DNA of 64,000 nt. Origin: Candidatus Komeilibacteria bacterium RIFOXYD1_FULL_37_29. Its GTDB lineage: Bacteria; Patescibacteriota; Patescibacteriia; UBA1558; GWA2-36-10. Below the pieces are notes generated by a model, which was not told where the DNA came from, did not search any database, and saw only the letters and a list, made by a program, of their open reading frames with translations. Made by a program: the position numbers and the translations under genes. Shown here piece by piece: positions 9,184 through 38,138 of this stretch (its first letter is position 1; every line of letters starts with the position of its first letter). Location of the stretch: assembly GCA_001818495.1 (NCBI GenBank), contig MHKS01000004.1, positions 1,421 through 65,420 on the forward strand. Reading direction: 5' to 3'.

Positions 9184-11028
9184 TTATTCAATATCCCACG
9201 GAATTGATAGCTGACCGACAAAATCATAATCACCAAATAGTACATCAGCTACTCCAGAGCCTTCACTACCTGGTAGCCAGGCAGCTACGATGGCATCCCA
9301 ATCATTGCTTACAGCACTAATATCCAAGGGTCGACCGGATATAATAATAACTACCAATTTTTTACTGGCCGTTTTGACTCGTGTAATTCTGGCTAGGTCT
9401 TCGGTACTCAATCTAGGATGCTGATTGTCGCCCCAACCCTCGGCATAAGGTTTTTCGCCAACTACGGCAATACCTATATCAGCCAAGTCGTCGCTTACGG
9501 TAAATTTTCCTTCAAGATTATAATCAATGCTTGTGTTAGCCGAAACAGCCTGTTTGATTCCCGACAAAATAGTAGTACCAGGTACCCAGTTGCCGTCGAT
9601 ACCTTGCCATTCTACAGTCCAAGCGCCCATCTGCTGGCCAAGATTATCGGCCGCCGAACCAGCCACTACAATTCTCTTAGCATTGTTTGCCAGGGGCAAA
9701 GTATTATTTTTGTTTTTTAGTTCTACCAATGATTTGCGGACAGCTTCTCGAGCTAGCTTACGGTGAGCTGGAGCGCCGAGTATAGACAGATCAATTTTCG
9801 TCTGGTTTTGATCAAAAAGTCCCAAACTAAATTTGGCTCGCAAAATTCTACTGACGGCATCATCTAACCGCGCTGGGCTGATATCATGGTTTCGAAGGGC
9901 TTTTTGAAGGTCGGCGGTAAATTGCTGGTAATCAAACGGCAACATCACTAGATCAACTCCGGCATTGATGGCTGTGACAATGGATTGATACTTATTGTTA
10001 GATATTTCGTAAACGCCATACCAATCAGATACTACAAAACCTTTGAAGTCCAATTCGTTTTTTAAAACATCGGTCAATAAATAACGCTGGGCGGCCATAT
10101 TTTTTCCTTGCCAGTTATTTAAGCCGGCCATGACGCTCAGAGCGCCCTCATCAATTGCCGCTTGAAACGGCGGTAGGTGAGTGAGTCGCAACTGCGCTTC
10201 GGTTATTTGACTGTCGCCTTGATCAATTTTAAAGTTTTCATTAATTGAAGTTCCCCAAGTCATAGCACCGGTACCGACATAGTGTTTAGCTGTACCTAAA
10301 ACCATCGGCCAGTCACTGTTTGGATTTTGTAAACCGTTTAAATAAGCGCGTCCTAGTTTGGTCACTGTTTGAGTGTTGCTTCCAAAAGTTTCATAGACCC
10401 TGCCCCAGCGTATGTCTTGAGGCACATCTAGATTCGGACCAAAAGTCCAGTGAATGCCTGTGGCTAGCAGCTCTTCTCTGGTAGCCTGGGCCACTCTTTT
10501 GACCAACTCGGTATCGTTGGTAGCTCCTAGACCAATGGCCTGTGGGAAAACCACAGATCCCGGAACATTGGCATGACCATGGTTGGCGTCGACGCCGTAA
10601 AGCAAGGGAATTTTTAGACAGGTTTTTAAAGCTACGGCATTAAAATTTTCTACCATTTTAAGCCAAGCCTCCGGCGTATTTGGATTGGGTTTTGCTCCGG
10701 CTCCGCTCAGTAATGCACCCAAGTGGTAATCAGCAATGTCTTGTGGTTTTAGGAGACTGTTTTTTTCCACCAAGGCCAATTGGCCGATTTTTTCCGCCTC
10801 GGTCATACGACCAAGTAAATCCTTTATTCTTTCTTCAGTTGGAATACTGGGATCTAAATACTTAGCGCTAGCAGCAAGACAATTTCGTGTTTCAATGGCT
10901 GGGCTGGTGGTTCTAGCGGGATTTTTTGTAATTAACTGGTCAAATATAATAAAAGCCAGAGCGATTAATCCTATAGCCAAGATCATTGGGGTATAAAAAT
11001 TTTTTTTCTTTTTTTTCGCTTTGCTCAT
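9184..11028 (-). CDS. glycoside hydrolase family 3 (beta-glucosidase/BglX-like), N-terminal membrane anchor
   Basis: KHYVGTG (GH3 N-domain), GFVVSDW catalytic nucleophile motif, C-domain VVIIISGRPLDI; N-terminal polybasic + TM segment. Confidence 0.85.
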   Translation of the reverse strand: MSKAKKKKKNFYTPMILAIGLIALAFIIFDQLITKNPARTTSPAIETRNCLAASAKYLDPSIPTEERIKDLLGRMTEAEKIGQLALVEKNSLLKPQDIADYHLGALLSGAGAKPNPNTPEAWLKMVENFNAVALKTCLKIPLLYGVDANHGHANVPGSVVFPQAIGLGATNDTELVKRVAQATREELLATGIHWTFGPNLDVPQDIRWGRVYETFGSNTQTVTKLGRAYLNGLQNPNSDWPMVLGTAKHYVGTGAMTWGTSINENFKIDQGDSQITEAQLRLTHLPPFQAAIDEGALSVMAGLNNWQGKNMAAQRYLLTDVLKNELDFKGFVVSDWYGVYEISNNKYQSIVTAINAGVDLVMLPFDYQQFTADLQKALRNHDISPARLDDAVSRILRAKFSLGLFDQNQTKIDLSILGAPAHRKLAREAVRKSLVELKNKNNTLPLANNAKRIVVAGSAADNLGQQMGAWTVEWQGIDGNWVPGTTILSGIKQAVSANTSIDYNLEGKFTVSDDLADIGIAVVGEKPYAEGWGDNQHPRLSTEDLARITRVKTASKKLVVIIISGRPLDISAVSNDWDAIVAAWLPGSEGSGVADVLFGDYDFVGQLSIPWDIE

Positions 11029-14119: not shown

Positions 14120-14158
14120 TATATTGCATGAGTAAAAAGATAAAATAATAGATATTTT

Positions 14159-14905
14159 ATGGAGGCAGATAAAATCAAACAAGTTGTTCAAAAAAGTTAT
14201 GCCAACATAGCCACCAAGCCCAGTGGTGGTTGTAAGTGTAGCTGTAGTTCAGATAACAGTGAAGCAATTTCCAAAAGCATTGGCTACTCTGACGAGCAGA
14301 TAGCAGTCGCACCAGAAGCCAACCTTGGTCTGGGTTGTGGCAATCCAACGGCTATTAGTAAAATAAAAGTCGGGGAGACTGTTTTGGATCTTGGCTGTGG
14401 TGCCGGCTTTGATGCTTTTTTAGCCGCCAAAAAAGTTGGCGATACTGGTAAGGTTATTGGTGTAGATATGACTCAGGAGATGATTGATAAAGCCAAAGTA
14501 TTGGCTGAAAAATATAATTATAAAAATGTCGGATTTAAGTGGGGGGAAATTGAAAATTTACCCATAGCTGATAATTCTATAGATGTTGTAATTAGCAATT
14601 GTGTGATTAATTTGGCTCCAGATAAATTAAAGGTATTTAAAGAAGCCTATAGAGTTTTAAAAACCGGAGGTAAAATGTACGTTTCCGATATTGTTTTATT
14701 AAAAGATTTGTCTAAAGAACAGAGAAACAATGAAGATTTAATAGCCAGCTGTGTCGGTGGAGCGCTTTTAAAGGATGATTATATAGACAAGGTTAAACAA
14801 GCTGGTTTAACAGTAAATATTTTAAGTGAAAATAAAGATATTAGTAAAAAACAGTACCAAGGTTTACCTCTTGAAAGCTTATCTTTAGAAATTATTAAAA
14901 TATAA
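14159..14905 (+). CDS. SAM-dependent methyltransferase, arsenite methyltransferase (ArsM)-like
   Basis: Cys-rich N-terminus (GGCKCSCSS), GCGNP motif, [14 protein letters not shown]-binding motif I, conserved Cys later (NCVINL, SCVGG). Confidence 0.55.
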
Positions 14906-15051
14906 GTAAAATTTAAAATAAAATTTACGTCAGCATTTATTTTTTTGTCTATTAATATTAATTGACAAAATATCAGGTAATCGTTAATGTGTAAGTAGCT
15001 GATTGTAGTTATTTCACAACCCTAAACCGCCTTATTTTAGGAGGCTAACTA

Positions 15052-15186
15052 ATGAATAGTAAGAAAGTAGCTATTCGTGCCGTTGAGATATGCCAAAAGG
15101 AGCATATCTCGCCAGAGGGTGCTGTTGTTCTCGCTGCCAGAGAACTTCACATTCCCCTGACGCCAGCGGCGAAGGGGGCAACATGA
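15052..15186 (+). CDS. small protein (44 aa) at start of GC-rich island
   Basis: SD GGAGG 7 nt upstream; stop overlaps start of next gene (ATGA); ~50% GC versus ~33% flanks. Confidence 0.35.
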   Translation: MNSKKVAIRAVEICQKEHISPEGAVVLAARELHIPLTPAAKGAT

Positions 15187-15758
15187 GGCGAGCCCTCTGG
15201 GTACTGTCCTTCAGTATCCTCATAGTCACTGGGATAATCATTGCCTGCCAGGACGGATCAGTCCCGACGGCAATGTCTACCCAAACCAATGACACTCCCA
15301 CGATGTTAGGCGCGGCAACGTCTTTTGTCGCCGGAGCGTCATATTCAGACTCACACCGTAATGCGATTTTTATCCCTCGAAACGAAACTGACAGCGGTGG
15401 CGTGTATGCATTCGATATTAGAATTGATGGCAGCCATCAATTCCAGGCCGAAATTTCTTTGGCAGCTTTCATCGTCTTTTCTGAAGCCCTAGATCTTCAG
15501 CAGATCGCAGATGTTGGAACACCCAAAGAAACGACGTTTCCTGTAAACACTCGGGCCATTCCAGGCACTATCTGGAAACATCGTACTTTAGACGCCTGGA
15601 TTATTATCGAGGACGTAGAAGGCGATGTCTACACTTGTGACATCCGCATAAATGGTTCGAGTCAACTTTTGCCGGTTAAGGTATCGGTCCAAGCTCTTCA
15701 GCAAACGCTATCTATCGCGTTTTTCACCGATCTCCTTTCGGAACGTTCTATCCAATAA
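15183..15758 (+). CDS. lipoprotein (191 aa) with internally duplicated ~70-aa domain
   Basis: Signal peptide + lipobox IIAC-Q; AFDIRIDGSHQ... and TCDIRINGSSQ... tandem domain repeat; ORF-track start 15090 is in-frame upstream but ATG 15183 is translationally coupled and begins the signal peptide. Confidence 0.5.
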   Translation: MRRALWVLSFSILIVTGIIIACQDGSVPTAMSTQTNDTPTMLGAATSFVAGASYSDSHRNAIFIPRNETDSGGVYAFDIRIDGSHQFQAEISLAAFIVFSEALDLQQIADVGTPKETTFPVNTRAIPGTIWKHRTLDAWIIIEDVEGDVYTCDIRINGSSQLLPVKVSVQALQQTLSIAFFTDLLSERSIQ

Positions 15759-15785
15759 CTCCCCACAGCTACAATCAGCCACCTG

Positions 15786-15817
15786 GGAGGATGTATAACA
15801 CGCATCCTCCTCTTTTT
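15786..15817 (+). terminator. Rho-independent terminator GGAGGATG-tataacac-CATCCTCC + T-run
   Basis: 8-bp GC-rich stem then TCTTTTT. Confidence 0.55.
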
Positions 15818-15855
15818 AAATAATGGAAAATAGAGTAAAATATAAGTAGATTATT

Positions 15856-16857
15856 TTGATAAAAATGAAAGAAAAATCCACCAATTTATTTCACAAGGCC
15901 AGTGCCGGCAGTCTGATGACCACTAGCGTACCTACCACCTTTTTAGATAGTACTATTTTTTCTATTGAGGAGTATTTATTAATAAATACCAAGCAGCTCA
16001 AATCAATAAATTATGTTTATATTTTGAGTAAAACAGGTGTCCTCAAGGGGGTTATTTCTATTAAAGAGATTTTTCGTCAGCCCAAAAGCAAAAAAGTATC
16101 GGAAGTAATGATTTCTGAATTAGTAGTAGCCCATCTTCATACCAGTCAGGAAAGAGTAGCTTACTTGGCTTTAAAACATAATATCAAAGCCATACCAGTG
16201 GTGGATAAAGAAGGTAAATTTTTAGGTGTAGTTTTAAATGATGATATCCTACGAGTTATTTATTCTGAAGCCCAGGAAGATATTTCGCACTTTGCCGGTG
16301 TACCACACCACTCATCAATTAATATTGATGATGTTACTAGTTTGTCACTGTTTGTTTCATTGAAACATCGTTTGCCTTGGTTGATTATTGGACTTTTGGG
16401 GGGACTTTTGGCGGCCCGAGTGATTGGTTTTTTTGAAAGCACCTTAGCGCAAAATATAATTTTAGCCGCTTTTATTCCACTAGTAGTTTATATGGCCAGC
16501 GCAGTGGGGACACAGGTAGGATTTTTTATTATCAGAGACCTAGCTATTAACCCCAAGATAAATTTTTTAACTTATACTGTACACCAACTTAAAGTTATTT
16601 TACTCATTGGCATAATCATCTCTTTGGCGGTTTTTGGTATCACTTGGATTTTTTACAGTGAACTGATGATTGCTTTTGTTTTAGCTTGGGCTATGTTTTT
16701 GGCCATCCTATCATCGGTCATTACGGGTCTTTTTATACCTTATGCTTTTAGTCGGGTAAAACTTGATCCGGCCAATGCCAGCGGGCCAATTGCTACTATT
16801 ATTCAGGATTTGATGAGTGTTACTATATATTTGCTGGTAGCCAGCAGTTTGTTGTAA
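15856..16857 (+). CDS. mgtE: magnesium transporter MgtE (CBS pair + MgtE membrane domain; lacks long N-domain)
   Basis: CBS-type region followed by TM domain containing DPANASGPIATIIQDLMSVTIYLLVA, matching the MgtE DPAxxxGPxxTTxxD signature. Confidence 0.75.
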   Translation: MIKMKEKSTNLFHKASAGSLMTTSVPTTFLDSTIFSIEEYLLINTKQLKSINYVYILSKTGVLKGVISIKEIFRQPKSKKVSEVMISELVVAHLHTSQERVAYLALKHNIKAIPVVDKEGKFLGVVLNDDILRVIYSEAQEDISHFAGVPHHSSINIDDVTSLSLFVSLKHRLPWLIIGLLGGLLAARVIGFFESTLAQNIILAAFIPLVVYMASAVGTQVGFFIIRDLAINPKINFLTYTVHQLKVILLIGIIISLAVFGITWIFYSELMIAFVLAWAMFLAILSSVITGLFIPYAFSRVKLDPANASGPIATIIQDLMSVTIYLLVASSLL

Positions 16858-16874
16858 AAATGATTTAGTTAATA

Positions 16875-16926: not shown

Positions 16927-18297
16927 TTATTTATTTTTTCCTTTATTGTTAGTATTTTTTGGGGAAATAATCTTTTTTATATTTTTATTTATTTTTTTGA
17001 TTATTTCTGATTTACTTTGAGAGTACTTTTTGTCATCGTCATCATCACTATCATCATCATGTCTTTCACTAGTCCAATATTTTGGAGCTTTTCTAGCCTT
17101 GGTAGTAACCGTGATAGTGTTGGAAGCAGCAGACATATCGCCGTCTTTGTCATAGGCCTTAACTGTAAAGGTATAGGTAGTACCGGGATTAAGTCTGATA
17201 TTGTTAAAGTGTGGTCTTTTTACTTTAGCAATTTGTACGCCGTCTTTAAAGACTGCATAACCTGCGATATTGGTTTTATCAGCTGGAGCTTTCCATTTTA
17301 AATTTACATGTTTATAAGAAACCACATGAGCTTTAAGTTGACTAGGGGCAGTGGGGACAGTAGTGTCAGGGGGTGCTGTATAGGTGGTAGCGGTAGCTGT
17401 ATTGGAATTAGCAGAAGTATTGCCAGCTCCATCATAAGCTTTGATGGTATAAGAGTAAGTAGTTGAAGCGGTTAGACCAGTATTGTGGTAAGTATTAGTA
17501 GTGACATTGGCAATTTTTGTGTTGTTTCTAAAAATAGAATAACCAGTAACACCGACATTATCAGTGGAAGTGGTCCAACTCAAATTGATTTGAGAAGCAG
17601 AAACTGGGTTGGCTGTTAAGTTCGTTGGTGCACTAGGTGCTGTATTGTCAGTGGAAGTAGCTAAAGTAGTAGCGGAAGCCGTGTTAGAAAAATTTGATCT
17701 ATTGCCAGCTCCGTCATAAGCTTTGACAGTATAAGAGTAAGTAGTTGAAGCTGTTAGTCCCAAATCATTAAAAGTTGAGCCAATGATATTGGCAATTTCT
17801 GTATTGTCTCTAAAGATAGCATAACCAGTCACAGCTACATTGTCAGTCGAGGTATTCCAAGCCAAGCTTATTTGAGCAAATGAAACAGCATTGGCTGTCA
17901 GATTAGTTGGTGCGCTAGGAGCTGTAGTATCACTAGTGGCGCTTAGAGTGGTAGCCGAAATAGAAGTCGAATGAGCAGAAGCATTTCCAGCTCCGTCATA
18001 AGCTTTGATAGTATAAGAGTAAGTAGTCGAAGCTGTTAGGCCGATATTATAGAAAACCGTGTTGGTGGTGTTGGCGATTTGTAGGCCGTTTCTAAAAATA
18101 GAATAGCCAGTGACACCAACATTGTCAGTGGAAGTTACCCAACTCAAATTTATTTGTGAAGCCGAGACTGGGCTAGCACTTAGATTGCTTGGTACAGAAG
18201 GAGAGACGATATCGTCTACAGCTTGGGCTGAATTTATCATTACCAAAGAAAATACTCCGATGAGTAATGATCCCAAGATTAATACTACTTTTTTCAT
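16927..18297 (-). CDS. secreted protein with four tandem fibronectin type III-like repeats and acidic/lysine-rich tail
   Basis: Signal peptide; ~90-aa repeats PSAPTNLTA..SWxTSTDNVGVTGYxIFRN...GLTASTTYSYTxKAYDGAGN x4; DDDSDDDDD then K-rich C-terminus. Confidence 0.7.
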   Translation of the reverse strand: MKKVVLILGSLLIGVFSLVMINSAQAVDDIVSPSVPSNLSASPVSASQINLSWVTSTDNVGVTGYSIFRNGLQIANTTNTVFYNIGLTASTTYSYTIKAYDGAGNASAHSTSISATTLSATSDTTAPSAPTNLTANAVSFAQISLAWNTSTDNVAVTGYAIFRDNTEIANIIGSTFNDLGLTASTTYSYTVKAYDGAGNRSNFSNTASATTLATSTDNTAPSAPTNLTANPVSASQINLSWTTSTDNVGVTGYSIFRNNTKIANVTTNTYHNTGLTASTTYSYTIKAYDGAGNTSANSNTATATTYTAPPDTTVPTAPSQLKAHVVSYKHVNLKWKAPADKTNIAGYAVFKDGVQIAKVKRPHFNNIRLNPGTTYTFTVKAYDKDGDMSAASNTITVTTKARKAPKYWTSERHDDDSDDDDDKKYSQSKSEIIKKINKNIKKIISPKNTNNKGKNK

Positions 18298-18545
18298 AGT
18301 TATTTTAATAATTATTTGATTAATTAAAATCGCTTATATAAATTAATACAAAGCAACAATCTGTATGTTACATGGTATATTAATAGGTGGGCGGCGATAG
18401 TCATAAGAGGGGGTTAAAAATTGTCTAATATTAGGCAAATAGTGGTATTTTTAAATCCGTTCGGGGAGGAGAGATTAGACAAGAATTGTTATTTTGCTAT
18501 ATTAAGGTGAGACAATTGGTTAACTTATTTGTATATTATATAGCT

Positions 18546-19034
18546 ATGGGGGTTGGTCAGGACAGTTTTATTAGTTATTATGAGAAATATAAAGATAAGA
18601 TTTATCTATATTTTTTGTATCGGGTCAATTTTAATCGGGATACAGCCGAAGATCTTACCTCAGAAGTTTTTTTGAAAGCCTTAAAAAGTTTTGAAAATTT
18701 TGATCATAATCGTTCTTTCCAAGCCTGGATTTATGCCATTGCTCACAATCACCTGGTCAATTATTATCGAACTGCCAAGCGGGAAGTAGAGTTAACAGAA
18801 AATATTTTTAGTACTAAAGAGGATATCAAAAAAATTGAAGTAAATTATGAACTGGATCTGGTTTTAAAAGAAATTAATGGTTTGGAGGATAGCGACAAGG
18901 AAATATTATTAATGCGTTTTGTTGACGAGCTAACCAATCCAGAGATTGCCGATTTATTGGACAAAGAAGAGGGAGCAATTCGCACCAAAATAAGCCGTAG
19001 TTTAGATAAATTGAGAAAAAAATTAGAAAAATAG
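18546..19034 (+). CDS. ECF-type RNA polymerase sigma-70 family factor
   Basis: Region 2 (DTAEDLTSEVFLKA...AWIYAIAHNHLVNYYR) and region 4 HTH (LTNPEIADLLDKEEGAIRTKISR); ORF-track start 18486 is TTG, ATG 18546 preferred. Confidence 0.8.
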   Translation: MGVGQDSFISYYEKYKDKIYLYFLYRVNFNRDTAEDLTSEVFLKALKSFENFDHNRSFQAWIYAIAHNHLVNYYRTAKREVELTENIFSTKEDIKKIEVNYELDLVLKEINGLEDSDKEILLMRFVDELTNPEIADLLDKEEGAIRTKISRSLDKLRKKLEK

Positions 19035-19036
19035 CT

Positions 19037-19861
19037 ATGGATAATTTAGAAAAATATTTATCAAATTTACCAAAGCCAAAGCTTAGCCGTCTGGTCGATC
19101 TTAAAATTCGGTTTAGAATTTATCGTTTTATGATTTGGAAAGGTATGGGGAATTCAATGTCCACTCTTTTACATCCACATTCTTTTTGGCTTAGGGTTTC
19201 TTATATGACTTTGATTATTATGATTGTTTTGGGTAGTAGCGCAGTTTATGCAGCCAACAATGACAACATTACTCCCGGACATTCACTTTATCCCTTGAAA
19301 AAAACTATTGAGACAGTTGAACAAAATCTATCTTTGACCAAAAATGCTCAGGTCAATACTTTGAATAAACTATCTGAGCGTCGCTTAAAAGAAGCTATTA
19401 ATTTGGCTAGTGAAGATATTGAGAAAAATGACAATGAGCAGGAGTCTAATAGTAATATTAAACAAAATCTTGATGAATTGGTAGAAAATTTGAATGAGGC
19501 AGTTACTATTTCTCAGGAAATAGGCGATCAGGATAAAGCCCAGCAAGTTAAGGAAAATATTAAAGAGAAAAATGAAAATGTTATAAAGTATTTGGAAGAT
19601 TTGGGAGATATTGCTCGCCAAAAAAGAGACCATGAAATTTCTGATAAAGTTGATGAAGCCAAACAGGCCATCAGGAAGTATCAAAAAATATTGGAAGATG
19701 ATGAAAAATCTTCCAATAAAAAAGAAGACTCTAAAAAAAGTCTTTGGGAAAGACGTTCTGATAATAATGATGACAATGATGAGCCATTAAAAAATAGCAA
19801 CGAGTCAGGCCGAGATGATTTTTCAGATGAAGGCCGAGACGAAGATAATGGTAGTGATTAA
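19037..19861 (+). CDS. membrane protein downstream of sigma factor (putative anti-sigma factor), coiled-coil and acidic C-terminus
   Basis: Start 3 nt after sigma stop; single TM (LIIMIVLGSSAVYAA), then charged/coiled-coil region; context only. Confidence 0.4.
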   Translation: MDNLEKYLSNLPKPKLSRLVDLKIRFRIYRFMIWKGMGNSMSTLLHPHSFWLRVSYMTLIIMIVLGSSAVYAANNDNITPGHSLYPLKKTIETVEQNLSLTKNAQVNTLNKLSERRLKEAINLASEDIEKNDNEQESNSNIKQNLDELVENLNEAVTISQEIGDQDKAQQVKENIKEKNENVIKYLEDLGDIARQKRDHEISDKVDEAKQAIRKYQKILEDDEKSSNKKEDSKKSLWERRSDNNDDNDEPLKNSNESGRDDFSDEGRDEDNGSD

Positions 19862-19910
19862 TCAACAATATTATCAATAACCAAAAGCCATCTACAAAAA
19901 GGTGGTTTTT

Positions 19911-19919
19911 TGGTATAAT
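19911..19919 (+). promoter_or_regulatory. extended -10 TGGTATAAT upstream of 19949 gene
   Basis: TTTTTTGGTATAAT module. Confidence 0.35.
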
Positions 19920-19948
19920 ATAATTACTTATCAGTAAGCAGGGCAATT

Positions 19949-20839
19949 ATGGCCAAAAAAATCATTTTTATATTTTCTTTCAGCCTTTTATTTTGGGCGT
20001 TACCCAGTGTTTCTCAGGCAGGACTTTTAGATGGCTTGGCTTGTGTAAAATGTGGCAATTGCGGTTTTGCGGATATTGCCACAGCTTTTTATGATTTAAT
20101 AGTAATATTACTGGGAGCGATTGGTGCCGTGGCCTTGGTCTATTTTGTCTGGGGTGGTACTCGTTGGATGATTTCTGGTGGTAATATGGAAAGAGTGAAT
20201 GAAGGCAAATCTATTATGATTAATACTGTTTTTGCTATTATTTTGGCCTTTAGCAGTAATATTATGATCAAGTTTTTTATTGAAGATATTTTAAATGTTA
20301 ATATGGAGGAAATTCGTTTGGGGGCAGCCGGTGTCTGTGACGAAGCACTTAATGTTACCCAGAACCGGGCTAATAATGCAGTTGGTTGTACTTCGGCTTG
20401 GGAGGGAGGAATCTCTTGTGGTGGCAGTTGTGGTGGTATTAACACCAGCGGTATAAACACCCAACAATGTTCCGATGCTTCACCGGCTTTGACAGATTTA
20501 CTTACTTGTTTGACACAGGGTGTAAATAATAGTCAGGTTTTAGATCCTAGTGATTTGATTATTACTTCTATTAGTCAAGATATTGGTCTGGCAACTTGTC
20601 GAGACAATTGGGTAGATGCTACTTGTGTGCATGTCAGAAATTCTTGCCATTATGGCGGACCAGCCAAAAATATGGACGGATCTTATGCCGCTGATTTAAG
20701 GAGCACTCATTTAAGTGATAGTCAGAGAGATGTTATTAGAACTATTATTGTTTCTTGTCATGGAAATTATTTATACCATCCGCCGTCTGATCCACCAACC
20801 CATATTCATATTAGTGCCGCTGGTTGTGGTGGTACCTAG
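19949..20839 (+). CDS. secreted/membrane protein with VirB2/TrbC-pilin-like topology and Cys-rich C-terminal extension
   Basis: Signal peptide (..SVSQA), then two hydrophobic helices separated by short polar loop (VALVYFVWGGTRWMISGGN...INTVFAIILAFSS), 170-aa tail with about 20 Cys; topology argument only. Confidence 0.3.
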   Translation: MAKKIIFIFSFSLLFWALPSVSQAGLLDGLACVKCGNCGFADIATAFYDLIVILLGAIGAVALVYFVWGGTRWMISGGNMERVNEGKSIMINTVFAIILAFSSNIMIKFFIEDILNVNMEEIRLGAAGVCDEALNVTQNRANNAVGCTSAWEGGISCGGSCGGINTSGINTQQCSDASPALTDLLTCLTQGVNNSQVLDPSDLIITSISQDIGLATCRDNWVDATCVHVRNSCHYGGPAKNMDGSYAADLRSTHLSDSQRDVIRTIIVSCHGNYLYHPPSDPPTHIHISAAGCGGT

Positions 20840-21803: not shown

Positions 21804-21908
21804 ATTAAAATAAAGCGAAAAAAGATTAGCTGGGGCACAGTCAACTAATCTTTTTGTTACCTTTTAACTTTTTATTCGTTATATATTAGTGAGAGAAGAT
21901 AAAAATCC

Positions 21909-22460
21909 ATGGATAATAAAGAATTAGCGCTAATTCAGGCCTGTCAAAGCGGAAACAATGAAGCTTTTGGACAATTATATGACCAGTATTTTAAAAAAAT
22001 ATACAGTTTTATCTATTATAAGGTTAGCCACAAGGAAAGCGCGGAAGATTTGGTAGCGGATACTTTTTATAAAGCTCTGGCTAATTTAAAAAAATTTAAT
22101 AGCGCTCAAGGAAATTTCAACGCCTGGATTTATCGAATAGCCAGGAATACAGTGATTGATCACTACCGCGGTAGTAAAGATGTTCAAGATTTGGGGGCTT
22201 TACCGGATTTTTCAGAGATAGATAGTACTATAGATCAAAGATTATCTTTGGAAGAAGTGCGTGATAAATTATATAAGTTAAATGAAACCCAGAGAGAAAT
22301 AATTATTTTACGGGTTTGGCATGATTTATCATATCAAGAGATAGCCGAAATAGTCGGCAAGTCAGAGGATAACTGCAAAATGATTTTTTCCCGGGGTATT
22401 AAAGAACTTAGATTATCACTAGCTAGTCTCATAATATTATTTACTATGTTGATCAATTAA
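21909..22460 (+). CDS. ECF-type RNA polymerase sigma-70 family factor
   Basis: Region 2 (AEDLVADTFYKA...AWIYRIARNTVIDHYR) and region 4 (LSYQEIAEIVGKSEDNCKMIFSRG). Confidence 0.8.
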   Translation: MDNKELALIQACQSGNNEAFGQLYDQYFKKIYSFIYYKVSHKESAEDLVADTFYKALANLKKFNSAQGNFNAWIYRIARNTVIDHYRGSKDVQDLGALPDFSEIDSTIDQRLSLEEVRDKLYKLNETQREIIILRVWHDLSYQEIAEIVGKSEDNCKMIFSRGIKELRLSLASLIILFTMLIN

Positions 22461-22464
22461 AAAT

Positions 22465-23982
22465 ATGACAGAAAATATAAAAATTTTTTTAGATGACTTA
22501 TATGCAGTGGACAGTAGCTTTAAAAAACACGAAAGAGAATTGATTGATATTATAGAAAAATTATTATCTTCTAAACCAGATATAAAATTTAATAAATCTT
22601 TCCAAAGCCGGTTGCGCGCCGAGCTTTTGGAAAAATTAGCCCAAAAAGAAAATAAAAAAATTAATTTTAATTATATGAATAACAAACTATTTTATGCTTT
22701 TGGTGCATTAGCACTATTTTTATTGCTAATTATACCAAGCTTATCTCCAGAGAGTTCTTTCAAGAATACCAAGACAGCCAAAGTCAATTTTGACTTACAG
22801 GTTAATAAGGTCAGTAAAAATGCTTTTGGTCCATTGGTGGCTCAAAATGCTGCTACAGCCGGATCAGAAGTTTCTTATGCCGTTGGTCGTGGTGGTGGCG
22901 GTGGTGGAGTAGCCGCAGCCGGGGATATGGCTGTTGAAGCGGACAGTAAATTAATATACCCTCAGCCCGTAGAGTACAAATATGTTTATGCCGGAGAAGA
23001 ATTTTCTCTTGATAATGCTCAAATGGAAGTTTTGAAAAAGATCAAAGGTTCAGGTTCTCAAAACGAGATGGCTCAATTTTTACAAAACGTAAATTTTGAT
23101 AATATCAGTTTACAATCTTTGGACGATCCTAAACTAAGAAACTTTACTATCTACGAGGACAAAGACTTTGGTTATTCTATTTATGTTGATTTGTATGAAG
23201 GTATGATTTCTATCAATGAAACTTGGGAAAGATGGCCAATCTATAATTACAATACTTATCTTGAGCCGATGAAGATAGAAAATATTCCTGGCGACGAACA
23301 ACTGATAGGCATGGCCAATAAATTTTTAAATGATTATGGTATCAGTACCGCTAGCTATGGCGAGCCACGGGTAGACAATAGTTGGCGCGAAATTTATATG
23401 CGGACTGAAGATAAGAGTATGGTCTATGTGCCGGATGTAATGACTATTGTTTACCCATTGATTATTAATGGGCAGGAAATTTATGAAGAATGGGGTGGAA
23501 CTATGGGGCTTCGAGTGTCTATAAATGTTAGATATAACAAGGTCAGCAACATGTGGAATTTGAGCAATCAGAAATATCAGAGCTCAATTTATGACATGGA
23601 AACAGATGTTAATAAAATATTAGACTTAGCCTCACGTGGCGGAAATTATTATTACTACTATCAGGATCCTAGTGCTAAAACAGTAGAAATAACTCTGGGT
23701 ACTCCACGCTTGGGCTATATGCAGACCTGGCAGTATACTGATAATGTTAGCCATGAGTTATTGGTCCCAGCTTTGATTTTTCCGGTCACCAATATTCCTA
23801 CCGATGCCGAGTATTTTTATCGGGAGAGCGTAGTTATTCCACTGGCCAAAGAAATTATTGATCAAAGGATGCAGGGTGGTGATTTGCCAGTACAGATTAT
23901 GGAGGATCAAACAGTGTCATCAGAAGAGACAGCTCCAGCCGAGCCAGTAGTTGACTTACCAGCCGTAAAATTGGAAGAATAA
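22465..23982 (+). CDS. membrane-anchored protein downstream of sigma factor (putative anti-sigma/sensor), Gly-rich linker and large extracytoplasmic domain
   Basis: Start 5 nt after sigma stop; N-terminal cytoplasmic segment, one TM, GRGGGGGGVAAAG linker; context only. Confidence 0.4.
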   Translation: MTENIKIFLDDLYAVDSSFKKHERELIDIIEKLLSSKPDIKFNKSFQSRLRAELLEKLAQKENKKINFNYMNNKLFYAFGALALFLLLIIPSLSPESSFKNTKTAKVNFDLQVNKVSKNAFGPLVAQNAATAGSEVSYAVGRGGGGGGVAAAGDMAVEADSKLIYPQPVEYKYVYAGEEFSLDNAQMEVLKKIKGSGSQNEMAQFLQNVNFDNISLQSLDDPKLRNFTIYEDKDFGYSIYVDLYEGMISINETWERWPIYNYNTYLEPMKIENIPGDEQLIGMANKFLNDYGISTASYGEPRVDNSWREIYMRTEDKSMVYVPDVMTIVYPLIINGQEIYEEWGGTMGLRVSINVRYNKVSNMWNLSNQKYQSSIYDMETDVNKILDLASRGGNYYYYYQDPSAKTVEITLGTPRLGYMQTWQYTDNVSHELLVPALIFPVTNIPTDAEYFYRESVVIPLAKEIIDQRMQGGDLPVQIMEDQTVSSEETAPAEPVVDLPAVKLEE

Positions 23983-27065: not shown

Positions 27066-27647
27066 ATGTCAATTGTCCAAAATCCAGACAAATTATCGGA
27101 CGAAGAAATCGTTAGGCTTACTTTAAAAGAGAAAGACAATTTTTTGTATTTGATTAAAAGATATGAAGGTAAACTAAGCCGTTATATCAGTCGTATCGCT
27201 GGGCTAAATAAAGAAGACACGGAAGATATTTTGCAAGAAGTTTTTATAAAAACTTATCAAAATATCAATAGCTTTGATAAAGATTTAAAATTTTCTTCCT
27301 GGATTTATCGTATTACTCATAATGAGGTGATTGATAATTATCGCAAAAAACAAGCTAGGCCACAGATGATTACTTATGATAATGAATTAATACTAAATAA
27401 TATCATTGGTGATTTGGATATTTCTCGCGAGCTTGATCGTAAGTATTTGCAGACACATATTAGTCAGCTTCTTAGCAGTTTAGATTTGAAGTATCGGGAA
27501 GTGTTGGTTTTAAAATTTTTGGAAGAAAAAGAATATAAAGAAATATCGGATATTTTAAAAAAACCAATGGGCACGGTAGCTACTCTGATCAATCGGGCCA
27601 AAAAGCAGTTTCTGGAAAAATTAAAAAAACAAGATATTAAATTATAA
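27066..27647 (+). CDS. ECF-type RNA polymerase sigma-70 family factor
   Basis: Region 2 (TEDILQEVFIKTYQNI...SWIYRITHNEVIDNYR), region 4 (KEYKEISDILKKPMGTVATLINRAKK). Confidence 0.8.
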   Translation: MSIVQNPDKLSDEEIVRLTLKEKDNFLYLIKRYEGKLSRYISRIAGLNKEDTEDILQEVFIKTYQNINSFDKDLKFSSWIYRITHNEVIDNYRKKQARPQMITYDNELILNNIIGDLDISRELDRKYLQTHISQLLSSLDLKYREVLVLKFLEEKEYKEISDILKKPMGTVATLINRAKKQFLEKLKKQDIKL

Positions 27648-27650
27648 TAT

Positions 27651-28412
27651 ATGGAGGAAAAAGATATTTCTCAAGAAATACTTGATAAAATAAAGGAAGT
27701 TAAACCAAAACCCCGTTGGCAATTTTTGCTGAATGATTATTTGATTTGGTTTTTGGCCAGTTTCTCCTTGATTGTTAGTAGTCTAGCCTTTGCCGTTGTT
27801 TTATATATGTTGGTAGATAATGATTGGGATGTCTATACTCGTATCAGCAACAGCCTATTGGAATTTGTATTTTTGACATTTCCTTATTTTTGGTTGATAT
27901 TTTTGGGAGGATTTATTTTAATTACCTATTATAATTTTCGGCATACTAAAAATGGATACAAGTATCCGCTTAGTAAAATATTTTTAGCTTCGTTTTTAAT
28001 AAATATATTGCTCGGCACATTTTTATATAATGTCGGAGTCGGCCAAGCTATTGATAATGCGGTAGCCAAACGTGTGCCTTTTTATAAAGAATTTATTAAT
28101 AAAAGAAAGCACATTTGGTCTAGAATTGATGATGGTCTTTTGGGGGGAGTGGTCACGGCTATTGAAGAAGAATATATACTTATAAAAGATATAGAGGGAA
28201 ATGTTTGGACTATAAAGCATTTTAATACTACTACTCCAGAATTTGTTCGTTTGCAACTTGGTCAGCCGGTTCGCATTATTGGTCAAAAAATAGACAGTCA
28301 AAATTTTGAAATGTTTATAATGCTACCGATGCGCGGTATGCATTGGATGAGGGGGCAAAATTTTCCGCCAGCTGTACCACCACCTATGATCAATGAAAGA
28401 AATTTTAGATAA
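27651..28412 (+). CDS. membrane protein downstream of sigma factor (putative anti-sigma)
   Basis: Start 4 nt after sigma stop; 3-4 TM helices then soluble domain; context only. Confidence 0.4.
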   Translation: MEEKDISQEILDKIKEVKPKPRWQFLLNDYLIWFLASFSLIVSSLAFAVVLYMLVDNDWDVYTRISNSLLEFVFLTFPYFWLIFLGGFILITYYNFRHTKNGYKYPLSKIFLASFLINILLGTFLYNVGVGQAIDNAVAKRVPFYKEFINKRKHIWSRIDDGLLGGVVTAIEEEYILIKDIEGNVWTIKHFNTTTPEFVRLQLGQPVRIIGQKIDSQNFEMFIMLPMRGMHWMRGQNFPPAVPPPMINERNFR

Positions 28413-34949: not shown

Positions 34950-35054
34950 AGTAGGAGAGATTTAGCCATAGAACTTTTATTTTGTCTAAAGGGGCTATTT
35001 CTGGTATAATTTAAGTATACTTGCCTGTTGTTAGGTAGCATAATAAATTTCACT

Positions 35055-36785: not shown

Positions 36786-36791
36786 AATAAT

Positions 36792-38138
36792 ATGGAATAT
36801 ATCAAAGATCAAACTAAAAAAGATGATACTACTGGCACTTTGGATCTTAGTAAATTAAGTGGCGAGGGAGAATTGACCAAAGGAGCTTCTCAGATGTCTT
36901 CTTTTAAGTTTTATTTAACTAAGCCATCGGCTCAGTGGGTAAAAAAAGAAGTCGTTGATAAAAATAAAGACACTGAGGTTAATAAAGACACTGCGGTTAA
37001 AAAAGACACTGAGAATAAGAAAAAGGAACTACCCAAGAATGTTTCCAAGGAATTATTAAAAAAGCCGATTCATAAAAAAGCTATTTTTCTATTTAAACGG
37101 GTTTCTTTAACGGATAATATGCTTTTTATGGATAATATGTCTACTATGCTAAGAGCCGGTCTATCACTCACACCATCTTTAAAAACTATTAGAAATGAGA
37201 TAAGAAATAAATATTTTAAGGAGGTCTTAGAGTATTTATATAATCATATTGAAAATGGTCAAACTTTGTCTACTGGTATGAAACACTATCCCAAAGTTTT
37301 TCCTGATATGGTCATAGCGACAGTAGAAGTAGGAGAAAATACTGGCATGTTGTCTGATACTTTTGGTCATTTGGCTGATATTATGAAAAGACAAAAAGCT
37401 CTTCGTAGCAAAGTACTGGGAGCAATGATGTATCCGTCTATTGTTATATTAGCTTTGTTGGCAGTAAGTGTGTTTTTATCTATGGTTATATTTCCCCAGT
37501 TGATTGGATTATTTGAAGCTTCGGGAGTAAAATTACCTTTTATTTTAGTGGCTGTTAACGCCATAAATTTTACTATTAGTAACTACTGGCCATACGTATT
37601 AGGGGTTTTTGTGGTTATAATAATTTTGACTAAAGTAGTGTTTTCTAAACCAGGTCCCAAGTTATTATGGCACACAGCTTTATTAAGAGTGCCTTTTATT
37701 GGAAAATTAGTCAGAGAATTAGCCCTGACCCGTTTTGCTGGTAATCTGCAAGCTCTTTTGGCTGCTGGTTTGGCCATTGTTCAATCTATGGAGATAGTGG
37801 CTAAAACTTTAGGCAACATGAAATATAAAAAAGAAATTTTAATAATGGCCAAAGAACTGGAAAAAGGAAAAACTTTGCAAAGTGCCATGGCCAAAAGACC
37901 AAAGTTATTTCCATCTTTGACTATACAATTAACGCAAGTGGGTGAAACAACTGGCCAGCTAGAAGAAATATTATCAAAAATTGCAAGATTTTATGAGGAT
38001 AGAGTTAATGGTGTTTTGAATAATTTATCTACAATTTTAGAACCAGTTTTATTGGTAATTGTGGGCATAGCAGTGGGCTTTATCGCAGTTTCTGTTATTG
38101 GGCCAATGTATGAATTAACTAATTCTTTCGCTGATTAA
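36792..38138 (+). CDS. pilC: type IV pilus inner-membrane platform protein PilC / GspF family with N-terminal extension
   Basis: Two T2SS-F repeats (…GLSLTPSLKTI… and …GKTLQSAMAK…), 3 TM segments. Confidence 0.8.
   Translation: MEYIKDQTKKDDTTGTLDLSKLSGEGELTKGASQMSSFKFYLTKPSAQWVKKEVVDKNKDTEVNKDTAVKKDTENKKKELPKNVSKELLKKPIHKKAIFLFKRVSLTDNMLFMDNMSTMLRAGLSLTPSLKTIRNEIRNKYFKEVLEYLYNHIENGQTLSTGMKHYPKVFPDMVIATVEVGENTGMLSDTFGHLADIMKRQKALRSKVLGAMMYPSIVILALLAVSVFLSMVIFPQLIGLFEASGVKLPFILVAVNAINFTISNYWPYVLGVFVVIIILTKVVFSKPGPKLLWHTALLRVPFIGKLVRELALTRFAGNLQALLAAGLAIVQSMEIVAKTLGNMKYKKEILIMAKELEKGKTLQSAMAKRPKLFPSLTIQLTQVGETTGQLEEILSKIARFYEDRVNGVLNNLSTILEPVLLVIVGIAVGFIAVSVIGPMYELTNSFAD

What the first reader, a model, noticed from the sequence alone, without database searches (positions are those of the whole stretch)
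14996..15830. GC-rich (~50%) island flanked by 11-bp inverted repeats: 44-aa protein plus lipoprotein with a duplicated domain
Composition jumps from about 33% to about 50% GC across roughly 800 bp. The left boundary reads GCTGATTGTAG (14999-15009). Its reverse complement CTACAATCAGC sits at 15769-15779, just past the second gene's stop.

Inside are two translationally coupled genes with an ATGA overlap and SD-like sequences: a 44-aa soluble protein and a lipobox lipoprotein. The lipoprotein contains two tandem copies of a roughly 70-aa domain (AFDIRIDGSHQ... / TCDIRINGSSQ...). Its own terminator follows.

The compositional discontinuity plus the flanking inverted repeat suggests a small horizontally acquired cassette. 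No transposase or integrase lies inside it.
Basis: seen in the sequence. Interest (0 to 1): 0.68.

Follow-up and report, generated by a model that had tools for sequence, protein, structure and literature searches.

The report
Foreign self-contained lipoprotein gene cassette
An ~0.9-kb piece of foreign DNA in a candidate-phyla-radiation bacterium carries its own promoter, two coupled genes (a 44-aa protein and an orphan surface lipoprotein) and its own terminator; its 11-base inverted repeats sit inside the transcript, where they most likely pair the two ends of the mRNA, and do not mark the ends of a mobile element.

Summary
Window 14916-15811 is the GC-richest stretch of the 64 kb (48% against 36%). 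It carries two overlapping genes, a perfect 11-bp inverted repeat and a terminator.

It is foreign DNA. The same unit, with identical spacing of all signals, lies in an unrelated 56%-GC genome in a different gene context. Third-codon GC is 0.44-0.50 in both copies, against 0.28-0.33 and 0.74-0.77 in the two hosts. The closest relative lacks it. At least ten independently assembled contigs rule out a chimera. Both genes are under purifying selection (dN/dS 0.19 and 0.25).

The repeats are not element ends. Homology between the two copies extends outwards to a TTGACA promoter and a terminator. One arm lies 7 nt after the -10 box; the other lies 10 nt after the stop codon and 5 nt before the terminator.

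The best reading is a moron-like, promoter-to-terminator accessory cassette whose mRNA is closed by 5'-3' pairing, as in hok mRNA. Both ribosome-binding sites sit in hairpins, and two perfect hairpins in the coding sequence are conserved at synonymous sites.

The lipoprotein family is an orphan: three clusters among billions of proteins, with no domain or fold match. Its role is unknown; an envelope or exclusion role is a guess. How the cassette moves is unresolved.

The parts
14916..15811 (+). Whole acquired cassette (896 bp, 46% GC overall; 48% between the repeat arms)
   Evidence: blastn against the closest cassette-free relative L014: 14136-14915 matches its ArsM gene (85%) and 15812-16865 matches MgtE plus its upstream region (78%). 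Nothing in between matches. The left end of the L001 copy (9671) aligns to about the same point.
14916..14942 (+). Upstream AT-only hairpin followed by a T run (weak insulating terminator)
   Evidence: 7-bp stem AAATAAA/TTTATTT. At the same distance before the -35 box, L001 has an 11-bp hairpin plus T run (9682-9710). The sequence is not conserved (44% identity), only the hairpin. This part is tentative.
14962..14990 (+). Promoter-like element: TTGACA (14962-14967), 17 nt, TAATGT (14985-14990)
   Evidence: TTGACAAAAT is 10/10 identical in L001, where the spacer is 16 nt and the -10 box is TACTGT. The -10 box is too weak for the consensus scanner. Function is inferred.
14998..15008 (+). Left repeat arm GCTGATTGTAG, at the predicted 5' end of the mRNA (7 nt after the -10 box)
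   Evidence: Identical in L001 at the same 7-nt distance from the -10 box.
15029..15045 (+). Hairpin holding the ORF1 ribosome-binding site (GCCUU / GAGGC; AGGAGG at 15039-15044)
   Evidence: Present in the consensus fold of both copies; the loop differs by an indel and substitutions. The stem is short and shows no covariation.
15052..15186 (+). ORF1, 44-aa soluble protein (core IRAxEICxxEHISPEGAVVLAARE)
   Evidence: Conserved in L001 (39 aa). dN/dS 0.19; third-position identity 0.49 against 0.77 at positions 1 and 2. No family hit.
15085..15110 (+). Perfect 9-bp hairpin inside ORF1 (GAGATATGC-N8-GCATATCTC)
   Evidence: The stem is identical in L001 while the loop differs. All synonymous sites in the stem are conserved.
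15154..15178 (+). Hairpin pairing the end of ORF1 (CCCCU) with the ORF2 ribosome-binding site (GGGGG): translational coupling
   Evidence: Consensus fold with one two-sided change that keeps the pair (C-G to U-A) in L001. ATGA overlap at 15183-15186.
15183..15758 (+). ORF2, 191-aa lipoprotein: signal peptide with lipobox IIAC (Cys22), Ser/Thr/Pro-rich spacer, two tandem ~65-70-aa beta-rich domains (FDIRIDGSHQ / CDIRINGSSQ)
   Evidence: dN/dS 0.25. Only three protein clusters known. No domain or fold match.
15421..15443 (+). Perfect 10-bp hairpin inside ORF2 (GAATTGATGG-CAG-CCATCAATTC)
   Evidence: Conserved in L001 with a different loop (Ser codon AGC to TCC). One stem change, C to T, keeps a G-U pair on the sense strand only.
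15769..15779 (+). Right repeat arm CTACAATCAGC, 10 nt after the ORF2 stop codon and 5 nt before the terminator stem
   Evidence: Identical sequence and identical spacings in L001.
15785..15817 (+). Intrinsic terminator (10-bp stem 15785-15811, then a T run that is partly native DNA)
   Evidence: L001 has a terminator of different sequence at the same place. The T run and downstream sequence are homologous to L014's MgtE upstream region.

Best explanation
Window 14916-15811 is a horizontally acquired, self-contained transcription unit. Functionally it resembles a phage 'moron', although it sits in a chromosome. Its order is: a weak upstream hairpin, a TTGACA-N17-TAATGT promoter, a 5' leader, two translationally coupled genes, a 3' trailer and an intrinsic terminator.

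The genes encode a 44-aa soluble protein and a membrane-anchored lipoprotein. The lipoprotein has a flexible spacer and two tandem beta-rich domains.

The 11-bp inverted repeats are not transposon ends. They are the first bases of the predicted mRNA and the bases just before the terminator. They most likely pair in the RNA and close the ~0.8-kb transcript into a panhandle. A base-paired 5' end plus a terminator hairpin at the 3' end would protect the message from end-dependent RNases. Hairpins over both ribosome-binding sites would keep translation low, and make ORF2 translation depend on ORF1 translation.

All these signals are carried in cis and need only universal host functions, so the unit should stay expressible in very different hosts.

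The biological role of the lipoprotein is a guess. By analogy with lipoproteins encoded by independent accessory units in phages, I suggest an envelope-protective or exclusion function.

Shown: composition, anatomy, foreignness, boundaries, purifying selection, conserved spacing, and synonymous-site constraint on the hairpins. Inferred: promoter use and transcription start, pairing in vivo, and protein function.

Confidence by part: foreign self-contained cassette about 0.9; repeats acting as an mRNA 5'-3' closing helix about 0.5; envelope or exclusion role about 0.2. The overall figure is for the first two together.
For: Foreign and real:
- The identical cassette sits in the same context on contigs from independent assemblies in ENA, JGI, NCBI and Logan (23 carrying contigs indexed, 8 read, two more).
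- A 66%-identical lipoprotein lies in L001, a 56%-GC MAG. There it sits between DNA polymerase III alpha and a threonyl-tRNA synthetase region, with the same promoter box, repeat arms, small ORF and terminator.
- GC3 of the cassette genes is 0.44-0.50 in both hosts. Host genes have 0.28-0.33 in the window and 0.74-0.77 in L001.
- The closest relative, L014 (MgtE 83% identical), has no cassette. This sets the junctions at 14915/14916 and 15811/15812.

Real genes: dN/dS is 0.19 and 0.25 at dS of about 1-1.4.

Repeats are internal and constrained:
- Homology extends beyond both arms.
- The leader from the -35 box to the ATG is 73% identical, against 49-58% at third codon positions.
- Both arms are 11/11 identical.
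- The spacings are the same in both copies: -10 box to left arm 7 nt, stop codon to right arm 10 nt, right arm to terminator 5 nt.

RNA folding:
- The closing helix is in the minimum-energy and centroid folds of both transcripts, with pair probabilities of 0.96-1.0.
- Folding z-scores are -8.6 and -6.8, against -0.4 to -2.9 for neighbouring genes.
- The only two perfect hairpins of 9 bp or more in the window's coding sequence are both kept in L001, with changed loops. Third-codon positions in their stems are conserved 12/13, against 121/218 elsewhere (p 0.007). The single change keeps a G-U pair on the sense strand only.
- The hairpin over the ORF2 ribosome-binding site has a two-sided change that keeps the pair.

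Lipoprotein: the host encodes signal peptidase II.

[quoted passage not shown] The hok mRNA is closed by a 5'-3' tac/fbi stem with a sequestered ribosome-binding site and a coupled upstream reading frame (PMC9841398). Ltp is a lipid anchor plus a spacer plus repeat domains (PMC3952083).
Against: - Only two diverged copies exist, and the 11-bp core is identical in both. There is therefore no covariation for the closing helix.
- Over the whole predicted fold, changed pairs are kept no more often than random complementary column pairs (0.38-0.43 against 0.38-0.40). Only a handful of helices are supported, not a global structure.
- The antisense strand folds as well as the sense strand (z -6.9 and -7.5). 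Energy alone cannot separate RNA pairing from a DNA-level palindrome function.
- The -10 box is weak, CPR promoters are not characterised, and the transcription start is inferred.
- Coupled transcription and translation could prevent a 760-nt long-range helix from forming.
- No phage genes lie nearby, so the unit is moron-like only in design.
- Protein function has no direct evidence.
- The insertion mechanism is unknown. There is no target duplication in the window, and L001 shows a 92-nt direct repeat with a gene fragment.
Confidence: 0.55

Rival explanations
1. Invertible (phase-variable) segment. A site-specific recombinase encoded elsewhere flips 15009-15768 between the two 11-bp arms. 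The promoter and terminator stay fixed outside, so the lipoprotein operon switches ON and OFF.
For: The geometry fits: promoter, arm, genes, arm, terminator. Arm length is in the range of known switches such as the 9-bp fim repeats (my knowledge). Both arms are perfectly conserved. The arms extend to 13/14 in the window and 15/17 in L001, using different flanking bases. Surface lipoproteins are typical phase-variable products. One contig (L013) begins inside the left arm at 15005. A tyrosine recombinase gene lies in the window at 42361-43137.
Against: All ten contigs read, and the independent L001 and L012 copies, have the ON orientation. No recombinase lies within 6-10 kb in either host. The window's recombinase is 27 kb away, next to rpsO and pnp, so it may simply be the chromosome's housekeeping Xer-type recombinase (my inference). 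A cassette that works in hosts of 36% and 56% GC would need a matching recombinase in each. This model does not explain the conserved coding hairpins or the sequestered ribosome-binding sites.
Confidence: 0.12
2. The two arms are DNA operator half-sites for the cassette's own 44-aa protein. That protein would be a small helical DNA binder that represses its promoter at +1 and may loop to the second site.
For: The left arm overlaps the predicted transcription start. The regulator would travel with the cassette, which explains portability. ORF1 is conserved and looks like a two-helix protein by eye. The 11-mer sequence itself is invariant, not just its complementarity.
Against: ORF1 matches no DNA-binding family, even at E up to 10. 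The sites are non-palindromic single half-sites 760 bp apart in inverted orientation, which is unusual for operators. A site between the stop codon and the terminator has no obvious regulatory use. This model does not explain the constraint on the coding hairpins.
Confidence: 0.12
3. Non-autonomous transposable element (MITE-like or IS-derived). The 11-bp repeats are terminal inverted repeats recognised by a transposase supplied in trans.
For: Inverted repeats bracket both genes and there is no transposase inside. The element occurs in two unrelated genomes.
Against: Homology between the two copies continues outside both arms, to the promoter upstream and a positionally conserved terminator downstream. 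The junctions with native DNA lie about 80 bp and 30 bp outside the arms. No target-site duplication abuts the arms. The 12-bp AAAATATAAGTA repeat is native sequence, also present in L014. There is one copy per 64 kb and no other 11-mer copies.
Confidence: 0.04
4. Not foreign: either an assembly chimera, or vertically inherited genes whose GC is high because of amino-acid composition.
For: None beyond the abrupt change in composition.
Against: The same junctions occur on contigs from independent assemblies and samples (23 indexed, 10 read). GC3, which is largely independent of amino-acid content, is 0.44-0.48 against 0.28-0.33 in flanking genes. The closest relative lacks the cassette. An unrelated 56%-GC genome has it.
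Confidence: 0.02

Closest known systems
Phage 'morons' (e.g. HK97 gene 15; lambda bor lipoprotein)
   Same: An independent transcription unit with its own promoter and terminator. Its GC content deviates from its neighbours, it was acquired horizontally, it has no mobility gene of its own, and it often encodes envelope proteins (PMC3594210).
   Different: This unit lies in a CPR chromosome with no phage genes within about 10 kb. The genes flanking it are not adjacent in the relative; L014 has six other genes there. It carries two coupled genes and an internal 5'-3' repeat pair. Both proteins are orphans.
hok mRNA of the hok/sok type I toxin-antitoxin system (tac/fbi fold-back)
   Same: A compact cassette whose full-length mRNA is closed by a long-distance helix between the 5' end and the 3' UTR. 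The ribosome-binding site is sequestered, and an upstream reading frame is translationally coupled to the main one (PMC9841398).
   Different: The product is a 191-aa lipoprotein, not a small membrane toxin. No conserved antisense promoter or RNA was found; the one antisense promoter-like site (15631-15603) is not conserved in L001. The transcript is about twice as long. There is no sequence or Rfam similarity.
Ltp-type superinfection-exclusion lipoproteins of temperate Streptococcus phages
   Same: The architecture is a lipid anchor, a Ser/Thr-rich spacer and two tandem repeat domains, expressed from an accessory gene (PMC3952083).
   Different: There is no sequence or profile similarity. The repeats here are predicted to be beta-rich with one helix each. 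Function is untested.
Invertible DNA switches (fimS; Bacteroides invertons)
   Same: Short inverted repeats bracket a segment whose orientation relative to a fixed promoter would decide expression of a surface protein.
   Different: No second orientation was seen, and no nearby recombinase exists. Here the genes would flip, not the promoter.
MITEs / IS-derived non-autonomous elements
   Same: Small size, inverted repeats, no transposase.
   Different: The repeats are not terminal, there is no target duplication, and the element is single-copy.

Membership tests
Moron (independent accessory transcription unit) | Own promoter and own factor-independent terminator | tested here: met
   The terminator is found by the scan in both copies. 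TTGACA-N16/17-TAnTGT is conserved in both copies, but the -10 box is too weak for the scanner, so promoter function is inferred.
Moron (independent accessory transcription unit) | Nucleotide composition differs from the surrounding genes | tested here: met
   GC is 48% against 36%, and GC3 is 0.44-0.48 against 0.28-0.33. In L001, GC3 is 0.47-0.50 against 0.74-0.77.
Moron (independent accessory transcription unit) | Inserted between two genes that are adjacent in a related genome | tested here: inconclusive
   L014 lacks the cassette but has 4.6 kb with six other genes between ArsM and MgtE. No clean empty site was found.
Moron (independent accessory transcription unit) | Resides in a phage or prophage genome | tested here: not met
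   No phage-type genes lie within about 6-10 kb in the window or in L001. There is no hit in viral contigs or in phage records.
MITE / IS-derived element | Inverted repeats form the termini of the mobile unit | tested here: not met
   Homology between copies and the junctions with native DNA both lie outside the arms.
MITE / IS-derived element | Target-site duplication flanking the element | tested here: not met
   None abuts the arms or the junctions. The 12-bp repeat near 15837 is native sequence, also present in L014.
MITE / IS-derived element | Multiple copies per genome | tested here: inconclusive
   There is one copy in 64 kb. The rest of the genome was not available.
Invertible DNA switch | Inverted repeats bracket the segment | tested here: met
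   Arms at 14998-15008 and 15769-15779.
Invertible DNA switch | Both orientations present in populations | tested here: not met
   Ten contigs of the window type, plus L001 and L012, all have the same orientation. Raw reads were not available, so a minority orientation is not excluded.
Invertible DNA switch | Cognate site-specific recombinase, usually adjacent | tested here: not met
   None within 6-10 kb in either host. The nearest tyrosine recombinase is at 42361-43137.
hok/sok-type type I toxin-antitoxin | 5'-3' fold-back helix closing the full-length mRNA | tested here: inconclusive
   Predicted in both copies with probability close to 1. There is no covariation and no experimental support.
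hok/sok-type type I toxin-antitoxin | Small hydrophobic toxin peptide and a cis-encoded antisense RNA | tested here: not met
   The products are a 44-aa soluble protein and a 191-aa lipoprotein. No conserved antisense promoter was found. There is no Rfam match.
Integron gene cassette | Promoterless ORF followed by an attC recombination site | tested here: not met
   The cassette has its own promoter and terminator. No attC-like imperfect palindrome follows the genes.
Bacterial lipoprotein (Lgt/LspA pathway) | Signal peptide ending in a lipobox with an invariant Cys; host has signal peptidase II | tested here: met
   MRRALWVLSFSILIVTGIIIA|C. The Cys is invariant in all three family members. LspA lies at 48505-48945. 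Lipidation itself is not testable here.

The most novel reading that the evidence does not exclude
The cassette may be a portable gene unit whose post-transcriptional control travels with it. In this reading it makes a hok-like 'latent' mRNA, closed by its own 5' and 3' ends, with both ribosome-binding sites masked. The message would be activated only after 3' trimming or by ribosomes reaching the stop codon 10 nt before the 3' arm. It would control an orphan surface lipoprotein in ultra-small CPR bacteria. Alternatively, the same repeats could be the sites of a new gene-flipping phase switch carried on a transferable unit. Either reading would be a new design for horizontally exchanged accessory genes outside phages.
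Probability: 0.15. Interest if true: 0.7.

Novelty: new variant of a known kind. Interest (0 to 1): 0.45.

Why it matters
CPR (Patescibacteria) genomes are small, and little is known about how they gain accessory functions. This is a clean, bounded example of a promoter-to-terminator unit moving between hosts of 36% and 56% GC while keeping its own composition, signals and spacing.

If the end-to-end mRNA pairing is real, transferable cassettes can carry built-in message stabilisation and translation control. That would help explain how foreign genes are expressed at once in distant hosts.

The lipoprotein is the founding member of a very small orphan family with a duplicated domain. In episymbiotic bacteria it is a candidate surface factor for phage exclusion or host contact.

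Tried and rejected
- Family and structure searches of both proteins found nothing above noise: Pfam, NCBIfam, PHROGs, PADLOC and PDB sequences.
- Word-indexed search of 5.8 billion proteins found only the cassette's own cluster plus one 66% relative. ORF1 found only itself.
- Exhaustive HMMER search of 1.84 billion representatives added one remote relative, P0004 (E 5e-6). Its locus, L011, has native composition and no ORF1, repeat arms or similar leader.
- Scans for related loci in genome, viral and metagenome collections returned only L001 again. A degenerate WKHRTLDAWI DNA pattern gave 0 hits in metagenome and viral contigs. tblastn against phages and plasmids gave no match.
- The promoter-plus-left-arm pattern hit three related viral contigs (L019-L021). 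This is one independent hit inside a reverse-strand ORF with no cassette, about the number expected by chance.
- The arm-to-arm pattern could not be run because the gap was too long.
- Rfam gave no match.
- The idea that a 12-bp direct repeat (14897-14908 / 15837-15848) is a target duplication was rejected. The right copy is native MgtE upstream sequence, also present in L014, and it does not abut the junction.
- The idea of a globally conserved RNA fold was rejected. Kept-pair fractions equal the null.
- An Obelisk-like or viroid-like origin was considered because of the size (~0.9 kb, ~200-aa plus ~45-aa ORFs) and the strong folding on both strands. It was rejected because the unit has DNA promoter and terminator signals, a signal peptide and a beta-rich fold, and is integrated in DNA assemblies.
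- A clean att-type integration in L001 was rejected. The 92-nt direct repeat comes with a fragment of a DUF3048-like gene start.
Full report
**1. What is in the sequence**

The region was read directly.
- GC in 200-nt windows rises from 0.22-0.29 just upstream to 0.46-0.565 across 15000-15799, then falls to 0.33-0.37.
- In 800-nt windows this is the GC maximum of the whole 64 kb (0.482; mean 0.36, sd 0.036).
Its exact reverse complement lies at 15769-15779.
- There are no other exact copies in the window. The arms extend to 13 of 14.
- ORF1 (15052-15186, 44 aa) and ORF2 (15183-15758, 191 aa) overlap in ATGA, and each has a purine-rich ribosome-binding site.
- ORF2 begins MRRALWVLSFSILIVTGIIIA|CQ, a signal peptide with a lipobox. 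A signal peptidase II gene is present in the window (48505-48945, PF01252, E 6e-24).
- A 10-bp terminator stem with a T run follows at 15785-15817.
- The internal duplication is real. BLASTP of the two halves gives E 1e-5 over the DIRIxGS core. A profile-profile comparison of repeat 1 and repeat 2 from three family members gives 91% probability, E 9e-7.

**2. Not an artefact**

The exact protein is indexed on 23 contigs from ENA, JGI, NCBI and Logan assemblies of different samples. Ten of these were read. All have the same neighbours: GH3, a 305-aa protein, a DEAD-box helicase, an NYN protein, ArsM, the cassette, MgtE and an fn3 protein. Their DNA across the cassette is identical to the window. 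The source organism is named Candidatus Komeilibacteria bacterium RIFOXYC1_FULL_37_11.

**3. A second copy shows the unit and its limits**

The only other close homologue is P0002 (66% identity). It lies on a 47.8-kb contig of an unclassified bacterial MAG of 56% GC (L001). There it sits between DNA polymerase III alpha and a membrane protein followed by ThrRS, a completely different context.

Reading that locus and aligning it with the window shows the same parts in the same order:
- TTGACAAAAT, then 16-17 nt, then TAnTGT.
- 7 nt later, (T)AGCTGATTGTAG.
- A leader with AGGAGGC.
- A 39-aa homologue of ORF1.
- The lipoprotein.
- 10 nt after its stop codon, CTACAATCAGC.
- 5 nt later, a terminator of different sequence.

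Homology therefore runs beyond both repeat arms.

The closest relative of the window genome I could recover is L014, a 702-kb contig whose MgtE is 83% identical. It has ArsM and MgtE but no cassette.
- blastn aligns window 14136-14915 with its ArsM gene.
- It aligns window 15812-16865 with MgtE and its upstream region.
- Nothing in between matches.

The acquired segment is thus 14916-15811 (896 bp). L014 carries 4.6 kb with six unrelated genes at this spot, so this is a variable region and not a clean empty site. The left end of the L001 copy (9671) aligns to the same point. A 1098-bp Logan contig (L012) reproduces the L001 copy exactly.

**4. Foreign in both hosts, and functional**

- Third-codon GC is 0.44 and 0.48 for the cassette genes in the window, against 0.28 (ArsM) and 0.33 (MgtE).
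- In L001 it is 0.50 and 0.47, against 0.74 (DNA polymerase III alpha) and 0.77 (ThrRS).
- The two copies are old relatives (dS about 1.0-1.4), yet both keep about 48% GC. They were probably taken up independently from sources of about 48% GC that are still unsampled.
- dN/dS is 0.19 for ORF1 and 0.25 for ORF2. Third positions are 49-58% identical, against 75-80% at positions 1 and 2. Both are real protein-coding genes.
- One 898-bp contig (L009) is identical to the window over 15100-15884. It then differs at 24 mostly third-codon positions in the first ~110 nt of MgtE. This suggests a second strain with an identical cassette beside diverged flanks, unless it is an assembly-graph chimera.

**5. 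What the inverted repeats are**

They are not termini (section 3). There is no target duplication. The 12-bp repeat AAAATATAAGTA is native sequence that L014 also has upstream of MgtE.

The arms are invariant (22 of 22 positions) between copies whose neutral sites are only about 50-58% identical. Their distances to the -10 box, the stop codon and the terminator are identical. The leader as a whole is 73% identical.

With the predicted promoter, transcription would start at about 14996-14998. The left arm would then be the 5' end of the mRNA, and the right arm would lie just before the terminator hairpin.

Folding results:
- Folding each full transcript puts the arm-arm helix in the minimum-energy and centroid structures, with pair probabilities of 0.96-1.0.
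- Both transcripts fold far better than dinucleotide shuffles (z -8.6 and -6.8). Neighbouring genes give -0.4 to -2.9.
- The excess stability comes from a few long helices and not from a global fold. Over the whole predicted structure, changed pairs are kept no more often than random complementary pairs.

The supported helices are:
- the closing helix;
- a small hairpin over the ORF1 ribosome-binding site;
- a hairpin pairing the end of ORF1 with the ORF2 ribosome-binding site, which has one two-sided change that keeps the pair;
- the terminator;
- two perfect hairpins inside the coding sequence, at 15085-15110 and 15421-15443.

These last two are the only perfect hairpins of 9 bp or more in the window's coding region. 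Both are retained in L001 with altered loops. Third-codon positions in their stems are conserved 12 of 13, against 121 of 218 elsewhere (Fisher p 0.007). The one change (C to T at 15443) keeps a G-U pair on the sense strand only. This points to selection on structure in the sense RNA.

**6. Most likely mechanism**

I read the segment as a portable, insulated expression unit. All of its control elements act in cis.
- The promoter and terminator define the transcript.
- The 5' terminus is base-paired to the 3' trailer, and the 3' end carries the terminator hairpin. That arrangement should resist 5'-end-dependent and 3'-exonucleolytic decay (established for 5'-terminal stems in E. coli; my knowledge).
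- Both ribosome-binding sites are partly masked.
- ORF2 translation is coupled to ORF1 through the ATGA overlap and the masking hairpin.
- The right arm starts only 10 nt after the stop codon. A terminating ribosome would therefore reach it, which could link translation to opening of the helix (inference).

The nearest precedent for such an mRNA is hok, whose full-length form is closed by the tac/fbi 5'-3' stem, with a sequestered ribosome-binding site and a coupled upstream frame (PMC9841398). In overall design the unit matches phage morons: own promoter and terminator, deviant GC, horizontal spread (PMC3594210). It is not in a phage, however.

Rival readings:
- Invertible ON/OFF switch. The geometry fits. 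But all contigs have one orientation, no nearby recombinase exists, and a cognate enzyme would be needed in two very different hosts.
- Operator half-sites for ORF1. ORF1 shows no DNA-binding signature, and the site arrangement is odd.
- MITE-like element. This is refuted by the boundaries.

**7. The proteins**

The lipoprotein family is tiny. It comprises the window cluster, P0002 and one remote relative, P0004 (E 5e-6), among 1.84 billion representatives. P0004 shares the N-terminal Cys and the two IRIDG-containing repeats. It sits in a ~46%-GC contig with native composition, without ORF1 or the repeat arms.

No Pfam, NCBIfam, PHROG, PADLOC or PDB sequence hit was obtained. AlphaFold2 models are weak (pLDDT 45 and 58). 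They consistently show two beta-rich modules, each with one helix. Foldseek found no credible match.

The anchor-spacer-two-repeat layout parallels the superinfection-exclusion lipoprotein Ltp (PMC3952083), without detectable homology. An envelope-protective or exclusion role is therefore only an analogy. ORF1 has no relatives beyond the two copies.

**8. How it moved is unresolved**

The window shows no duplication at the junctions. In L001 a 92-nt direct repeat (98% identical; 9580-9671 and 10739-10830) brackets the cassette plus about 160 bp. That extra stretch contains, on the minus strand, the start of a DUF3048-like gene. This looks like an untidy recombination event and not site-specific integration. 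No copy was found in viral, plasmid or phage collections.

**9. Verdict**

This is a real, well-bounded, horizontally acquired accessory cassette of a known general kind (a moron-like unit). It has an uncommon feature: conserved repeats that most likely close the mRNA end to end, plus conserved coding hairpins. It encodes an orphan lipoprotein. Interest is moderate. The transfer conclusion is solid. The RNA mechanism is plausible but rests on two sequences and on prediction. The biological role is unknown.

Noticed in passing
L001:9580-9671 and L001:10739-10830; L001:10574-10739: In the second host, the cassette plus about 160 bp is bracketed by a 92-nt direct repeat (98% identical). The repeat contains the last codons of DNA polymerase III alpha, and the promoter, ribosome-binding site and first 14 codons of the downstream gene. 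The extra 160 bp holds, on the minus strand, a 35-aa start fragment resembling the DUF3048 genes of the same contig (35-nt match to L001 2792-2826).
   Followed up: partly
L009 (ERZ909580, 898 bp) = window 15100-15997: The contig is identical to the window through 15884. It then has 24 mostly third-codon differences in the first ~110 nt of MgtE. This is either a second strain or species with an identical cassette beside diverged flanks (a recent inter-strain transfer) or an assembly-graph chimera.
   Followed up: partly
window 14906-15864 versus L014:1298-6000: The ArsM-MgtE interval is a variable spot. The closest relative carries six unrelated genes there (417, 156, 95, 154 [DUF333], 154 [PAS] and 441 aa [CLIPPER_2]). 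It also lacks the 305-aa, DEAD-box helicase and NYN genes that precede ArsM in the window.
   Followed up: partly
window 14943-14970: A 16-nt near-perfect palindrome (TTTTGTCTATTAATAT / ATATTAATTGACAAAA) overlaps the -35 box of the cassette promoter. It is not conserved in L001.
   Followed up: no
window 15009-15026; L001:9772-9792: Part of the left arm (AUUGU) can also pair with a nearby ACAA(U/C) box 10-14 nt downstream in the leader: 6 bp in L001 (in the fold) and 4 bp in the window (read by eye; not in the predicted fold). This is a possible alternative partner if the 3' arm is absent, reminiscent of the hok tac/ucb alternative pairing.
   Followed up: partly
window 16927-18297 (minus strand): A 456-aa secreted protein has four fibronectin-type-III-like repeats, with DNA repeats of 73-78% identity. 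Its length varies between assemblies (468 aa in L003).
   Followed up: no
window 61940-62016: tRNA-Ile with anticodon TAT (UAU). This is an uncommon way for bacteria to read AUA, which most read with a lysidine-modified CAU tRNA.
   Followed up: no
window 42361-43137 (minus strand): A 258-aa tyrosine recombinase (PF00589, E 5e-13) lies next to rpsO and pnp, 27 kb from the cassette. It is the only recombinase noticed in the window.
   Followed up: partly
window 18516-20839, about 21900-23980 and about 27070-28410: Modules of an ECF-type sigma-70 gene followed by an unannotated or DUF5667 protein recur. T4SS_pilin-like and LRR proteins lie nearby, along with a type IV pilus / T2SS ATPase and platform pair at 35028-38138.
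   Followed up: no
L019:3325-3368, L020:1631-1674, L021:13835-13878: Three related IMG/VR phage contigs contain TTGACAAAAT-N23-GCTGATTGTAG inside a reverse-strand ORF. No cassette follows, and the number of hits is about what chance predicts.
   Followed up: yes
L011:5224-5234/5481-5491 and L011:5449-5458/5635-5644: In the remote homologue's gene, the DNA encoding each IRIDG motif (TTGACGG...) has a perfect 10-11-nt reverse complement 176-246 nt downstream. The window copy has a perfect hairpin at its first IRIDG motif. This could be coincidence or a recurring nucleic-acid feature of the family.
   Followed up: no
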